Positions 7,190 through 46,896 of a stretch of 64,000 nucleotides of DNA are shown piece after piece. Each line of letters starts with the position of its first letter. Positions within the stretch are counted from its first letter, which is position 1. The notes beneath the pieces are model-generated. The model was not told the DNA's origin, made no database searches, and saw only the letters and a list, made by a program, of their open reading frames with translations. The DNA is taken from the NCBI GenBank assembly GCA_964016885.1, contig OZ024742.1:293632001-293696000 (forward strand). Reading direction: 5' to 3'. Source of the stretch: Eledone cirrhosa (taxonomy: Eukaryota). Both the position numbers and the translations under genes were made by a program.

Positions 7190-7822
7190 AGGTGATGTGC
7201 GGTCACCCTTTTTGAACAGAGGAATGACACTGTCAGTTTTCTACTGTTCTGGAGTAGCACCGTTGTTCAGACAGAATTGAAAGTAGCATGATAGCTGGTG
7301 CAGTAGGAAGTACCCACCACATTTGAGAAGCAGGTACGTAACACCATCAAGACCAGGAGAGGCATGGTTGCGTTTATTTTTAAGGTGATGTCGCAGCATT
7401 GCAGGTGTAAATTCCATGGTTGTAATAGAGTCCGGTGTCATAGGTGGTGGAGATGGTACACTCTGGTCTTCAATAGTGAAAATGCCTGCATAACATTCAG
7501 CAATGAGCTCTGCACATTCCTTGGGGTCGTGAGGAACTTGGCTTGTGTGGGGATTGCGAAGCAGACCAACTGGAGAGTGAGGCCTCCGCTTTGAGTGAAC
7601 ATACTTCCAGAACACCTTACTGTCAGGGCTGGTTGCTATGCGCTGCTCAAATTGAAGCACTGCTTTTTTGTCACCTGTTTGAGATGGTTGGATGATTTTC
7701 GCCTCTTCCTATTGATATCTGATTTATGCAGTTTGTACTCACGTTCAGCATTACAATGTTCTTTTCTGGCAAGACGGACTGCTGCAGTCTCCTAAATTGC
7801 ACTTTTGGGATGTTTTTTCTGC

Positions 7823-33323: not shown

Positions 33324-34017
33324 CTAGAAAACAAAGGAAATATATAGAAATAAATCTCTTTGATAATTGAAATTTTGTTTGTTTAATTTTCAAAGGCTTC
33401 ATTTTAAAATATAAAAATGATATACAGTTAGCTTTAGGCATTTTGATACCAGTCTGGCCAAAACTGGCTCTGGTTCTATGAAATCAAACTACCCATTTTA
33501 AAAGGTTTCTATCTAAATTTAAATCTTCCAACATAATTTTATATTAAGAACCTTCTGTTAAGTACTATCTTAGTGATGGAATAATCAATAATTTTAGTAA
33601 CTTCCACAAAATTCTTAATTAATTGAAATAGAGTGTATTTCAGTAGAAAGAAACAATCACAAAAGAGTTGAACAGAGGAAATTACAGTATCTAATACAAA
33701 TATTTCATGGTCCTGGCAGACAAAATAGTGGATGTTACTCTGAAGAATGACAAGGCAGATAGATGCACTGAAAGAGCAACTCTACCCCACTTGGCTTGTT
33801 TTTACAGATGGTTATCTCTATCCTAATCAATTGAAGAGTTTGATTATAAGGTCATTTACTACAACAGTCCCATACCAGGTATGTACACTTCATTAGCCCT
33901 GAGGACCAATTTGATCAACCAGTGCCAATGAAAATGACCTGGAAAATATTTACTCAAAGAGACAGAACCCCAAATCAAGGGCAGATAATCTGTGTGGTCT
34001 CTCTCTCTCATTATATA

Positions 34018-34290
34018 CAATATATTAATAAATGGAAACTCTATTTATAAAACCATAATTATTTTATTATATATATTTCAAGAGCAACCAAGCCCATCTT
34101 GGTGCGCTTTCATCAGATAATAGGCTTGGTCGCCCTTGAAATATATATAATAAAATAATTATGGTTTTATAAATATAGTTTCCATTTATTAATATATTGA
34201 ATATTTACTCCAGTAATCTGTTGAGTGCTCTATATCAGTTATAAACATTTAAGTTTGTTGGAATCCCAACAAATTAAATATAACTTCTAC
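34018..34290. mobile_element. Fold-back element (arms 34018-~34094 and ~34123-34199) of the same family as 46441-46859
   Basis: The palindrome is visible; 34160-34290 is homologous to the reverse complement of 46441-46555; ends in (TA)n. Confidence 0.8.
34064..34120 (-). ncRNA. Minimal type I hammerhead ribozyme motif
   Basis: RNA UUAU-CUGAUGA-AAGCGCACCAAG AUGGG CUUGGUUGCUCUU-GAAA-UAUAUA-UA-AUAA: intact core, long stem II, palindromic stem III, only 4 bp of stem I retained. Confidence 0.7.
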
Positions 34291-34302
34291 ATATATATAT
34301 AT

Positions 34303-34653
34303 ATCACGCAGTAATACAGGGTACTCGACCTCCCATGGGTACATGCTGAAGCATATAAACAATATGCCCCCACTCCCCCCACCGCAAGGTGGTCGTGGAG
34401 GTGCCACGGCAAAAAAGCACCCAGCCCACACTGTAAAGTGGACGTGTAGGCGCCACGAAAAAGCACCCAGCACTCACTGTAAATGAGGTTGGTGTTAGGA
34501 AGGGCATCCAGCTGTAGAAATCAAGCCAAATCAGTTCCTGTATGAGCAAGGCATGGTCAGCCGACCAGACACTGCCCACAACAGGACAACCCGTCTAACC
34601 CATGCTAGCGTGGAAGAACGGACGTAAAACGGTGATGATGATGATGATGATGA
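34303..34653 (+). mobile_element. RTE-clade LINE 3' end with (GAT)n tail
   Basis: Near-identical reverse complement of 56208-56540 and 62625-62960; ends catgctagcgtggaagaacggacgtaaaacggt(gat)n. More diverged copies at 42270-42662, 46900-47164 and 53988-54150(-). Confidence 0.88.
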
Positions 34654-42904: not shown

Positions 42905-43321
42905 CAATTAATGGTAGCTGTAATAGTATATTTATGTCACTTATGTCATTGCTGTCACGTTATCTTAGTCATTCTCCCCCCCCCCCCTTCCTTCCTCTTC
43001 TCTCTCTCTCAACCTTTTTATACCAACCCAACCTAACCAAAACCGACTGATTCTATGAAAAAAAAAACATGCATATTCTTGCATGGTTTTATATTAGGTT
43101 AGTATCTTAGTAATTAAATAATTAATAATTTTAGTAAATCACACAAAATATTTCATTAATTAATTGAAATAATCATATGGTCACGAAAGAGTTAATTTAA
43201 ACTGAACTTTGTATATATTCCAGCTAATGGTAGCAGCAATAGTGATGTGTCACTATAGTCTGTTATATGCAGACTATACATACACTTTCATTATCATATT
43301 TCCAATGAAAGAAACTGCTTA

Positions 43322-44540
43322 GTCATTAACTCTTTCATAACCATATTTCTAATGAAAGGCACTGTCTATGTCATTACCCCTTTCCTTACCATATTTCTAA
43401 TGAAAGACATTACCTATGTCATTAACCCTTTCCTTACCATATTTCTAATGAAAGACATTACCTGTCATTAACCCTTTCACTACCATATTTCTAATGAAAG
43501 ACATTACCTGTCATTAACCCTTTCATTACCATATTTCTAATGAAAGACATTACCTGTCATTAACCCTTTCACTACCATATTTCTAATGAAAGACATTACC
43601 TGTCATTAACCCTTTCATTACCATATTTCTAATGAAAGACATTACCTGTCATTAACCCTTTCATTACCATATTTCTAATGAAAGATACTGCCTGTCATTA
43701 ATCCTTTCATTACTGTATTTCTAATGAAAGCCAGTCATCATCATTATCATCGTTTTACGTCCGCTTTTCCCTGTCTATGTCATTAACCCTTTCCTTACCA
43801 TATTTCTAATAAAAGACACTGTTTATGCCATTAACCCTTTCATTACGATATTTCTAATGAAAGACATTACCTATGTCATTAACCCTTTCCTTACCATATT
43901 TCTAATGAAAAACACTGTTTATTTCATTATCCCTTTCATTACGATATTTCTAATGAAAAACACTGTTTATGTCATTAATCCTTTCCTTACCATATTTCTA
44001 ATGAAAGACACTGTTTATGTCATTAACCCTTTCATTACGATATTTCTAATGAAAAACACTGTTTATGTCATTAACCCTTTCCTTACCATATTTCTAATGA
44101 AAGACACTGTCTATGTCATTATCCCTTTCCTTACCATATTTCTAATGAAAAACACTGTTTTTTGTCATTAACCCTTTCATTACGATATTTCTAATGAAAA
44201 ACACTGTTTATGTCATTAACCCTTTCCCTACCATATTTCTAATGAAAGACACTGTCTATGTCATTATCCCTTTCCTTACCATATTTCTAATGAAAAACAC
44301 TGTTTATGTCATTATCCCTTTCCTTACCATATTTCTAATGAAAAACACTGTTTATGTCATTAACCCTTTCCTTACCATATTTCTAATGAAAAACACTGTT
44401 TATGTCATTAACCCTTTCCTTACCATATTTCTAATGAAAAACACTGTTTATGTCATTATCCCTTTCCTTACCATATTTCTAATGAAAGAAACTGCCATTA
44501 TCCCTTTCCTTACCATATTTCTAATGAAAGAAACTGCCTA
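43322..44540 (+). repeat. 44/48-bp minisatellite (~25 units) built from a piggyBac-MITE terminus
   Basis: Unit ttaaccctttccttaccatatttctaatgaaaaacactgtttatgtca (48 bp; 44-bp variant in the 5' part); interrupted at ~43733-43772 by an RTE tail fragment. Confidence 0.93.
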
Positions 44541-45079
44541 TTATTTTCAAATCATATTAGAAATAATTAAGAATTAATCTAGTGTTTAGAAATCTAACTA
44601 ACTTTAGTTCTTTGTGTTCTGAGTTCAAATCTTACTGTGGTCTACTTTTGTGCTATACTTAATCCATCACCTACTTTAACACCTCCACTGGCCCTTTTAG
44701 CAATCATTTTGACACAGCTGGAGGATAACTGCCTCTCTCCTACCGAGACCCTGACTTCCAGTCTCAGTGATTGTGACTAAACTAAAAAAACAAAAATCCC
44801 TACTTAAAACCATTCTCAGAGGCGCTGAAAAGAGTCATGGGCACTGCCTTTCTCTCCCTGACAATAACAAAAAGAAAAAAAAGAACTATTTAAAACTACT
44901 GAGAAAATTCTGTGAAGTAAAACCTATGAGTTCTGACTTACTGTATCTCTTTATCTGTAAAGTAAAAGTATAAAGTTCAGTTTACATAAACAGAAGGAAT
45001 TATTAAGTTAACTAAAGATAACATGTGACAAAAATGACATAACCACACCCCTACTACTGTTACCATTAGTTAGTATCTA

Positions 45080-45518: not shown

Positions 45519-45553
<35 letters not shown>

Positions 45554-45558
<5 letters not shown>

Positions 45559-46418
45559 GGAAAAAAAATGAAACGAAATTTCATTTCCCACTCTTAGTAC
45601 GGCTGTTGCTTAAATATAAGTATGTACACGTACATACATATATGTATATAGACATACAGTAGTATGTATATATATATATATATACATGCACACATATATA
45701 TATGTACGTATGGATTCATCAAACATTTATTATAATGCTCGGTGTGTCTGTAAACAAACATCCCGTATTAAGCCGTAGTGTCCAGCCACCATCGTTGCTC
45801 GTTTGTTCAACACTGACAAAGGAACGCTGTACTAGTTTCAAGCTTATTAGCTATCGATGTTTGTTTACAAACACACCGAGCATTATAATAAATGTTCGGT
45901 GAATCCATACGTACATATATATATGTGTGTATGTATATATATATACATACTACTGTACATCTGTATACATATATGTATGTACGTATACATACATATATTT
46001 AAGTAACAGCCGTACTAAGAGTGGGAAATGAAATTTTGTTTCATTTTTTTCCATTTATTGTTTTCGGTGGACCCGACCGATTAACCCACTTGATATGCAA
46101 ATTGGGCTACTCAGCCGTTAATACACATAAGGTAAGTATATACGTTCAACAATCTGGCAGGAAGGTATACGTTGCTAACGATAGCTAATAAGCTTGAAAC
46201 TAGTACAGCGTTCCTTTGTCAGTGTTGAACAAACGAGCAACGATGGTTGCTGGACACTACGGCTTAATACGGGATGTTTGTTTACAAACACACCGAGCAT
46301 TATAATAAATGTTCGGTGAATCCATACGTACATATATATATGTGTGCATGTATGTATATATATATACATACTACTGTACGTCTATATACATATATGTATG
46401 TACGTGTACATACTTATA
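45554..46418 (+). mobile_element. (TA)n-flanked element: inverted copy followed by ~1.35 tandem copies of a 417-bp unit containing a hammerhead-like motif
   Basis: 45554-45762 is inverted relative to 45856-46057; 45614-45856 is inverted relative to 46179-46418; gatgtttgtttacaaacacaccgagc recurs at 45856 and 46273. Confidence 0.82.
46169..46211 (+). ncRNA. Minimal type I hammerhead motif with G5A substitution
   Basis: RNA ACGUUG-CUAACGA-U AGCU AAUA AGCU U-GAAA-CUAG-UA-CAGCGU: 6-bp stem I, palindromic ACUAGU stem III, GUA cleavage triplet. Confidence 0.65.
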
Positions 46419-46554
46419 TATATATATATATATATATATAAGCAAAAGGGATATTTAATTTATTGGTAATTCAACAAATATAAATGTTTATAACTGATTC
46501 GAAGCACTCGACAAGTTTTCTGGAGTATAATATTAAATAAATGGAAACTATATT

Positions 46555-46615
46555 TATTCTATTATATATATTTCAAGAGTACCAAAACTTTGGTACGCTC
46601 TCATCAGATAAAATA
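46555..46615 (-). ncRNA. Minimal type I hammerhead ribozyme motif (minus-strand copy)
   Basis: RNA UAUUUUAU-CUGAUGA-GAGCGUACCAA AGUU UUGGUACUCUU-GAAA-UAUAUA-UA-AUAGAAUA. Confidence 0.8.
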
Positions 46616-46752
46616 CAAAGTTTGTTTTATAAATATTGACATATCCAGGAAGGAGATCTTAACGGTTCAAGTTTTTCCTGGATAGTAAAGGAAAAACTTG
46701 AACCATTAAGATCTTCTTCCTGGATATGTCAATATTTATAAAACAAACTTTG

Positions 46753-46813
46753 TATTTTATCTGATGAGAGCGTACCAAAGTTTTGGTACCCTTGAAATAT
46801 ATATAATAGAATA
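46753..46813 (+). ncRNA. Minimal type I hammerhead ribozyme motif (plus-strand copy)
   Basis: RNA UAUUUUAU-CUGAUGA-GAGCGUACCAA AGUU UUGGUACCCUU-GAAA-UAUAUA-UA-AUAGAAUA; 8-bp stem I, predicted AUA cleavage after 46805. Confidence 0.8.
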
Positions 46814-46853
46814 AATATGGTTTTATAAATATAGTTTCCATTTATTTAATATC

Positions 46854-46896
<43 letters not shown>

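What the first reader, a model, noticed from the sequence alone, without database searches (positions are those of the whole stretch)
45554..46418. Unrelated 417-bp tandem unit with its own hammerhead and an inverted upstream copy
Seen: an inverted segment followed by ~1.35 direct copies of a 417-bp unit. The unit contains ACGUUG-CUAACGA-stem II-GAAA-CUAG-UA-CAGCGU, and the inverted copy stops inside the ribozyme core (…ttagctatcg| at 45856). Established: an inverted 5' pLTR plus partial tandem is the classic Penelope integration structure; a few-hundred-nt monomer with one hammerhead is the retrozyme layout; G5A inactivates hammerheads. Inference: a second independent family, copied from a circular or tandem RNA template, whose ribozyme has since been inactivated.
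Basis: partly seen in the sequence, partly recalled or inferred. Interest (0 to 1): 0.75.

Follow-up and report, generated by a model that had tools for sequence, protein, structure and literature searches.

The report
Decayed copy of Penelope-type retrozyme
This is one aged insertion of an abundant, protein-free 422-base repeat that carries a predicted self-cutting RNA motif and was likely pasted into a TA repeat by a Penelope-type jumping-gene enzyme; the motif is broken in this copy but intact in about 99% of the family, so the locus is an ordinary member of a known kind of element.

Summary
Observation confirmed: an inverted 0.71-unit arm (45553-45856) joined 5'-to-5' to a direct 1.35-unit arm (45856-46420), between two (TA)n tracts, with one full type I hammerhead carrying G5A. 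The unit is a dispersed family: 6,134 exact matches to the 30-nt core, 55 with G5A. So this copy is dead; the family is not. Usual unit length is 422, not 417, and it is a 76% sister of a 467-nt family, so it is unrelated only to its neighbour. Across 152 loci, arm 3' ends fall at two fixed sites 59 nt apart (209 of 265 arms). In 42 of 46 fully classed two-armed loci each arm uses a different site. That is the Penelope tail/(TA)n footprint, also seen in an autonomous Penelope family here. Best reading: a non-LTR retrozyme mobilised by a Penelope enzyme. Circular versus linear tandem template is unresolved, no partner element was identified, and no RNA run was listed. The scan has already described what is very likely this family on other DNA (e1-8665316). 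New member of a known kind; low interest.

The parts
45524..45555 (.). (TA)16 tract, left target flank
   Evidence: 191 of 209 arms ending at the two fixed sites have TA repeats just outside
45553..45856 (-). Arm 1, 0.71 unit; inner (5') end at unit position 46179, outer (3') end at fixed site E2 (equivalent to 46058)
45824..45856 (-). Truncated hammerhead in arm 1: lacks the 5' strand of helix I and core positions 3-6
45856..46420 (+). Arm 2, 1.35 units; inner end at unit position 46273, outer end at fixed site E1 (46416-46420, blurred by TA microhomology)
46000..46058 (+). 59-nt tail between E1 and E2, with a purine/pyrimidine hairpin just before E2; inferred binding and initiation region for the Penelope enzyme
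   Evidence: ends; fold of the homologous tail in L017; role inferred from PMC11167929
46144..46230 (+). Long hairpin extending helix I; one pair with change on both sides in the extension
46169..46211 (+). Type I hammerhead: 6-bp helix I, U.U-closed 4-bp helix II, 2-bp palindromic helix III (ACUAGU), predicted cut after 46205
46177..46177 (+). G5A change in the catalytic core; 55 of 6,134 exact core matches carry it
   Evidence: G5A abolishes cleavage (PMC4027429, passages)
46330..46420 (+). (TA/TG)-rich self-complementary part of the unit; source of unit-length variation
46417..46440 (.). (TA)n tract, right flank, shared with the neighbouring fold-back hammerhead element

Best explanation
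This is a mutated copy of a dispersed, non-coding 422-nt hammerhead repeat (a non-LTR retrozyme) that was likely inserted by a borrowed Penelope reverse transcriptase/GIY-YIG enzyme. Shown: high copy number, no ORF over 51 codons, two back-to-back arms, two fixed 3' ends 59 nt apart, (TA)n flanks, scattered 5' ends, intact core in about 99% of copies. Inferred: the enzyme binds the tail of a multi-unit or circular RNA, cuts both strands of a TA tract and primes cDNA from each cut end, one at E1 and one at E2. The two cDNAs stop at arbitrary points and are joined 5'-to-5' with little or no microhomology. Arms longer than one unit need a template that runs through the cut site, either an uncut tandem transcript or a circle. 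The palindromic 2-bp helix III predicts cleavage only as a dimer. G5A here most likely arose during or after insertion, and this locus, with one broken and one truncated ribozyme, would not self-cleave.
For: Family: 1,631 first-look candidates, 40 scored, full-length matches at 92-97% apart from the window itself; 6,134 core matches, control 0. Ends: of 265 arms in 152 loci, 108 end at E2, 101 at E1, 52 elsewhere, 4 at a locus edge; of 72 two-armed loci, 46 have both ends classed and 42 of these are E1+E2 (p=3e-9). TA flank at 191 of 209 ends. An autonomous family with RT and GIY-YIG shows the same build: L076 has two opposed ORFs, a hammerhead after each, and ends about 50 nt apart at TA. Its hammerhead and that of a second Penelope family share the U.U-closed helix II and palindromic helix III. 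Helix I covaries: U-G 7, G-U 4, A-U 2, unpaired 1 of 14. Opposite arms share rare variants at 30 of 423 variant sites against 129 of 20,190 between loci; of 61 shared variants A>G 15 vs T>C 2 and G>A 21 vs C>T 2, a strand bias expected of an RNA/cDNA template. Literature: tandem plus inverted copies, tail at one end, (TA)n targets (PMC8557442 passages); both-strand cleavage and extension, two internal start sites bounding the tail (PMC11167929 main text).
Against: No autonomous element with sequence homology to the unit was found in 50 GIY-YIG loci examined, of 150 listed; tail alignments to six Penelope terminal regions were matched by shuffles in five cases (173, 88, 118, 41 and 29 of 300), and the sixth (5 of 300) is a T-rich stretch. 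The tail is 59 nt against 30-40 nt described. The A>G excess (164 vs 117, p=0.003) vanished when only alleles seen in at most 2 loci were kept (38 vs 37), and A>C vs T>G was also skewed (p=0.045). Sharing between arms could come from gene conversion. Core columns were no better conserved among copies than other columns (36 of 1,730 vs 1,098 of 49,086, confounded by how loci were picked). No cleavage or expression data.
Confidence: 0.85

Rival explanations
1. Template variant A: the RNA is a hammerhead-processed monomer or dimer circle that the enzyme copies round and round (the retrozyme model).
For: Median arm 1.05 units, up to 10.2. 0 of 207 inner ends within 3 nt of the cut site (3.4 expected, p=0.03), so cut linear monomers are not the usual template. 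The circular monomer of an intact copy folds at -133 kcal/mol, z=-7 against 60 shuffles. L238 and L188 have units alternating with period 2. Circles were shown for mussel retrozymes (PMC7229834 section 14).
Against: Neighbouring units within an arm share only 99 of 1,337 variant sites. G5A sits on both arms of L187 and in adjacent units of L189 and L141, so cleavage-dead units were probably copied. Period-2 arrays can also arise by later tandem amplification.
Confidence: 0.45
2. Template variant B: the RNA is an uncut linear read-through of a genomic tandem array, with the hammerhead dispensable for insertion.
For: For PAc, hammerhead mutants did not affect insertion and unprocessed RNA was the dominant substrate (PMC11167929). 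In-register arm segments share more variants than out-of-register ones (45 of 338 vs 26 of 385, p=0.004). In this locus the inverted arm shares 46384A with the in-register unit only.
Against: After dropping two subfamily loci and one period-2 array (L097, L110, L238) the difference is 20 of 262 vs 9 of 223, p=0.12. Hairpin gene conversion would also favour in-register sharing. Covariation of helix I implies selection on the ribozyme fold.
Confidence: 0.4
3. The unit is simply a solo pseudo-LTR left by 5'-truncated insertions of a full-length Penelope element.
For: Hammerheads of the same build lie in the pLTRs of autonomous families here. GTAAGT at 46132 and TTTGTCAG at 46222 resemble a pLTR intron.
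Against: Units are joined head to tail with no ORF between; longest ATG ORF 51 aa; no GIY-YIG locus of 50 runs into the unit as its own terminal repeat. The donor GT is GA in the sister family and in a subfamily.
Confidence: 0.1
4. A DNA-level fold-back element or satellite spread by recombination, with the hammerhead incidental.
For: Large arrays exist (C1:51.77-51.79 Mb); the unit has a microsatellite-like part.
Against: Fixed asymmetric 3' ends, variable 5' ends, dispersion over many contigs, TA targets, strand-biased shared variants and helix covariation.
Confidence: 0.03

Closest known systems
Metazoan non-LTR retrozymes (Cervera and de la Pena 2020, PMC7229834, passages and section 14 read; Li, Clavereau and Pollet 2026, 10.64898/2026.07.22.740005, parts 1-3 of 5 read)
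   Same: Short low-GC (36%) tandem unit with one type I hammerhead, no ORF, thousands of copies, highly self-paired monomer, coexisting with autonomous PLEs.
   Different: Unit slightly above the 170-400 nt range of the first paper, inside the 51-972 bp range of the second. The two-armed insertions with fixed ends are not described in the parts read. Circles and cleavage are not tested here. This locus fails the second paper's 'active' criterion of two complete hammerheads.
EN+ Penelope-like elements and their non-autonomous derivatives (Craig et al. 2021, PMC8557442, passages; Frangieh et al. 2024, PMC11167929, main text)
   Same: Partial tandem plus adjacent inverted 5'-truncated copy, tail at one end only, (TA)n targets, two start sites bounding the tail, hammerhead in the repeat. 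Non-autonomous multicopy head-to-tail Chlamys elements such as MRC1 are described.
   Different: No RT/GIY-YIG ORF; tail 59 nt rather than 30-40; partner not identified. In vitro PAc showed no difference in start site between strands, whereas here the two arms nearly always use different sites.
PLE hammerhead variants (Cervera and de la Pena 2014, PMC4209133, passages)
   Same: Type I topology, short palindromic helix III implying dimeric cleavage, extra base between position 9 and helix II.
   Different: Helix II is closed by U.U rather than the conserved G10.1-C11.1; helix I is extended into an 87-nt hairpin.

Membership tests
Non-LTR retrozyme | Short tandem unit with one type I hammerhead | tested here: met
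   422-nt unit, one motif per unit; covariation in helix I
Non-LTR retrozyme | No protein coding | tested here: met
   longest ATG ORF 51 aa in a dimer of an intact unit
Non-LTR retrozyme | Many dispersed copies as monomers to multimers, low GC | tested here: met
   6,134 core matches; arms to 10.2 units; GC 36%
Non-LTR retrozyme | Intact catalytic core (family level) | tested here: met
   6,079 of 6,134 have G5
Non-LTR retrozyme | At least two consecutive complete hammerheads at this locus ('active' copy) | tested here: not met
   one G5A motif and one truncated motif on the other strand
Non-LTR retrozyme | Expressed as a circular RNA | not testable with these tools
   only assembled contigs of runs of unrecorded kind were available
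Non-LTR retrozyme | Self-cleavage in vitro | not testable with these tools
   needs a bench assay
Autonomous Penelope-like element | RT plus GIY-YIG ORF between pLTRs | tested here: not met
   no ORF in the unit or the insertion
PLE-mobilised (non-autonomous) element | Partial tandem plus inverted 5'-truncated copy | tested here: met
   72 two-armed junctions in 152 loci
PLE-mobilised (non-autonomous) element | Tail at one end; two fixed 3' ends | tested here: met
   E1 101 and E2 108 of 265 arms; 42 of 46 E1+E2; length 59 nt against 30-40 in print
PLE-mobilised (non-autonomous) element | AT-rich or (TA)n target | tested here: met
   191 of 209 ends
PLE-mobilised (non-autonomous) element | Sequence similarity to an autonomous family at the 3' end | tested here: inconclusive
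   none above shuffles in 50 of 150 listed GIY-YIG loci; shared hammerhead build only
LTR retrozyme (plants) | Type III hammerhead in LTRs with 4-bp target duplication | tested here: not met
   type I topology, tandem units, TA flanks

The most novel reading that the evidence does not exclude
Each insertion records one Penelope enzyme dimer gripping the 59-nt tail of a single multi-unit or circular retrozyme RNA and priming the two cut DNA strands from the two different ends of that tail, so that every full insertion is an E1 arm plus an E2 arm. Ribozyme-dead units can ride along. This would explain the inverted-plus-tandem structure and one-sided tail of Penelope elements in one step.
Probability: 0.45. 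Interest if true: 0.6.

Novelty: new member of a known kind. Interest (0 to 1): 0.3.

Why it matters
The locus itself is a decayed copy. The family matters modestly: it gives genomic support for the proposed link between animal retrozymes and Penelope enzymes, and it supplies exact start sites (E1, E2) and a minimal 422-nt RNA for an in vitro test of two-strand priming. The scan has noted this pattern for what is very likely this family and for several others.

Tried and rejected
Rfam scan of the window: 0 matches at gathering score. RNA evidence: no RNA holder listed; six runs of unrecorded kind were laid as contigs and cannot show expression or circles; in three of them 99.8-99.9% of depth at 46177 is G. 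The small shares in runs X4-X6 are not used. Intron idea (GTAAGT at 46132, CAG at 46222, enclosing the hammerhead): no precisely spliced copy in the genome (2 matches to a gapped pattern, neither precise, control 1), no such joint in the laid contigs, donor not conserved; PLEs retain introns, so this is unsupported rather than excluded. Autonomous partner: 50 of 150 listed GIY-YIG loci checked, no homologous terminal repeat. The L077 end that matched E2 was a variant, since most of 30 relatives end differently. Pile-up of inner ends at the cut site: none (0 of 207); pile-up in the core not significant after correction; piles at 46002 and 46322-46332 look like alignment artefacts. 166 of 209 arms cross the cut site, but loci were largely chosen by a pattern next to it, so this count is biased. 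Register test inconclusive. Sequence look-up in earlier findings returned nothing, so identity with e1-8665316 rests on unit length and end spacing. Three paper searches listed no description of this family; one octopus repeat annotation has no mention of ribozymes or retrozymes in its main text (PMC13282606, passages). No supplements were read; those of PMC7229834 and PMC4209133 may list related motifs.

Full report
Observation. The sequence is as described. Bases 45553-45856 are the reverse complement of unit positions 46179 to 46420 followed by 46002 to 46058. From 45856 the plus strand carries a partial unit (equivalent to 46273-46422) and then a full unit ending at about 46420. The two arms overlap by one base. 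(TA)n tracts lie on both sides. The 417 spacing reflects a 4-nt deletion in the first copy; the commonest spacing in 152 loci is 422 (12 of 65). The hammerhead folds with a 6-bp helix I extended into an 87-nt hairpin, a 4-bp helix II closed by U.U, and a 2-bp palindromic helix III; the predicted cut follows 46205 (numbering recalled). Rfam gives no match at gathering score.

Family. A 281-nt query gave 1,631 first-look candidates, of which 40 were scored; full-length matches other than the window were 92-97% identical. Copies lie a median 2.5% from the column majority (164 pieces). A 17-nt marker of a related family occurs 15,286 times; that ~467-nt unit aligns end to end at 74-78%. The unit is not related to the neighbouring hammerhead element at 46441-46858 or its relative near 34116 (44 of 200 and 34 of 200 shuffles score as high). 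On 14 chosen distinct hammerhead regions from both families 95% of cells pair, and one helix I pair occurs as U-G 7, G-U 4, A-U 2, unpaired 1 (shuffles ignore relatedness).

Insertion anatomy. Of 265 arms, 108 end at E2 (46058), 101 at E1 (about 46420, equivalent to 45999), 52 elsewhere and 4 at a locus edge. Of 72 back-to-back pairs, 46 have both ends classed: 42 E1+E2, 3 E1+E1, 1 E2+E2 (p=3e-9). TA repeats follow 191 of 209 such ends. Inner ends are scattered; none of 207 lies within 3 nt of the cut site and 11 lie in 46171-46179 (4.4 expected; not significant after correction). The window's locus is a plain E2+E1 case. Craig et al. (PMC8557442, passages) describe partial tandems, an adjacent inverted copy, a 30-40 bp tail often at one end only, (TA)n targets and non-autonomous multicopy forms. 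Frangieh et al. (PMC11167929, main text) show that a purified Penelope protein cuts and extends both strands at AT-rich DNA, starts internally at two sites that bound the tail, is predicted to be a dimer, and does not need hammerhead cleavage. They saw no strand difference in start site, so the one-each pairing here goes beyond that paper.

Machinery. The genome holds GIY-YIG elements (150 scored of 10,597 candidates). Of 18 long ORFs scanned, 8 matched both RT and GIY-YIG, 8 GIY-YIG only and 2 RT only. L076, of the same family as the RT-bearing L064 and L065, is itself two-armed with ends about 50 nt apart at TA. That family's hammerhead and that of a second family with a CxxC motif before GIY-YIG (Neptune/Nematis type by the passage) share the U.U closure of helix II and a palindromic helix III; the second has a U3/A8 core (that this swap is tolerated is recalled). 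No examined locus, 50 of 150, shares significant sequence with the unit as its own terminal repeat; L055, L071 and L072 hold independent insertions of this or the sister family. The partner is unidentified.

Template. Opposite arms share rare variants far more than separate loci do (30 of 423 vs 129 of 20,190; 94 loci). Among 61 shared variants in the larger set, A>G is 15 against T>C 2 and G>A 21 against C>T 2; after dropping three loci with more than four shared changes, 11 against 0 and 11 against 2 of 37. Over all 152 loci A>G is 164 against T>C 117 (p=0.003), and 102 against 68 in 97 pattern-selected loci (p=0.009). Against this, the excess disappeared for alleles seen in at most two loci (38 vs 37), and gene conversion could also make arms alike. 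Half of the arms exceed one unit (median 1.05, maximum 10.2), so the template ran through the cut site. A register test favoured a linear multimer (45 of 338 vs 26 of 385) but not after dropping L097, L110 and L238 (20 of 262 vs 9 of 223, p=0.12). Among 31 loci with G5A and at least two cores, 27 have it in one unit only; L187 has it on both arms, L189 and L141 in adjacent units, L188 in alternate units. Cleavage-dead units were thus probably copied at times. In the window the inverted arm starts two bases past position 5, so the timing of G5A cannot be read. The circular monomer of an intact copy is strongly folded (z=-7, 60 shuffles), as for known retrozymes (PMC7229834, section 14).

Comparison and verdict. 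The family meets the sequence-level definition of a non-LTR retrozyme and the insertion footprint of a Penelope-mobilised element; the 2026 preprint (parts 1-3 of 5) already argues that animal retrozymes are non-autonomous Penelope derivatives. Circularity and cleavage could not be tested. This copy is not an active retrozyme. The scan's earlier notes describe a 422-nt family with ends 59 bases apart in this genome and like families elsewhere; these are unchecked AI notes, and the end pattern was re-derived here. Verdict: real, a new member of a known kind, already noted by the scan; interest 0.3.

Noticed in passing
window 46441-46858: A separate fold-back element (arms 46545-46679 and 46689-46823, 97%) with an intact CUGAUGA hammerhead on each strand (46607 minus, 46761 plus), sharing the TA tract with this insertion; related to an element at about 34000-34304.
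   Followed up: partly
L077, L078, L247-L276 (for example G000:C2:298231-298639): An abundant Penelope family (1,692 first-look candidates) whose pLTR hammerhead has a U3/A8 core, U.U-closed helix II and ACCGGU helix III; it has an internal TA tract followed by a tail of about 35 nt.
   Followed up: partly
L076 (G000:C1:97885000-97893000); also L066: Autonomous Penelope insertions with two opposed ORF-bearing arms; in L076 the two arms end about 50 nt apart.
   Followed up: partly
L238 and L188: Arrays of 8-10 units in which variants alternate with period 2, in L188 including G5A in alternate units: a dimeric template or later dimer amplification.
   Followed up: partly
L185:1501-1523: A unit lacking the whole hammerhead (86 nt removed at a short microhomology), in tandem with an intact unit.
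   Followed up: partly
G000:C1:51772506-51788728: A tandem array of at least 16 kb of ~428-nt units of this family.
   Followed up: no
window 46132-46222: Splice-like signals (GTAAGT, TTTGTCAG) bracket the hammerhead; no spliced copy found and the donor is not conserved.
   Followed up: yes
L061:3809-6622, L062:1488-4019, L063:775-4062: Long open Penelope-type ORFs of 938, 844 and 1096 aa, candidates for expressing an enzyme from this genome.
   Followed up: partly
window 43285-44541: A 46/48-bp minisatellite of about 27 copies, 1 kb upstream of the insertion.
   Followed up: no
window near 7240, 8638, 42100 and 57166 (minus) and 25808 (plus): Open frames of 200-430 codons that look like fragments of LINE and LTR retrotransposon proteins (labels recalled from motifs, not searched).
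   Followed up: no
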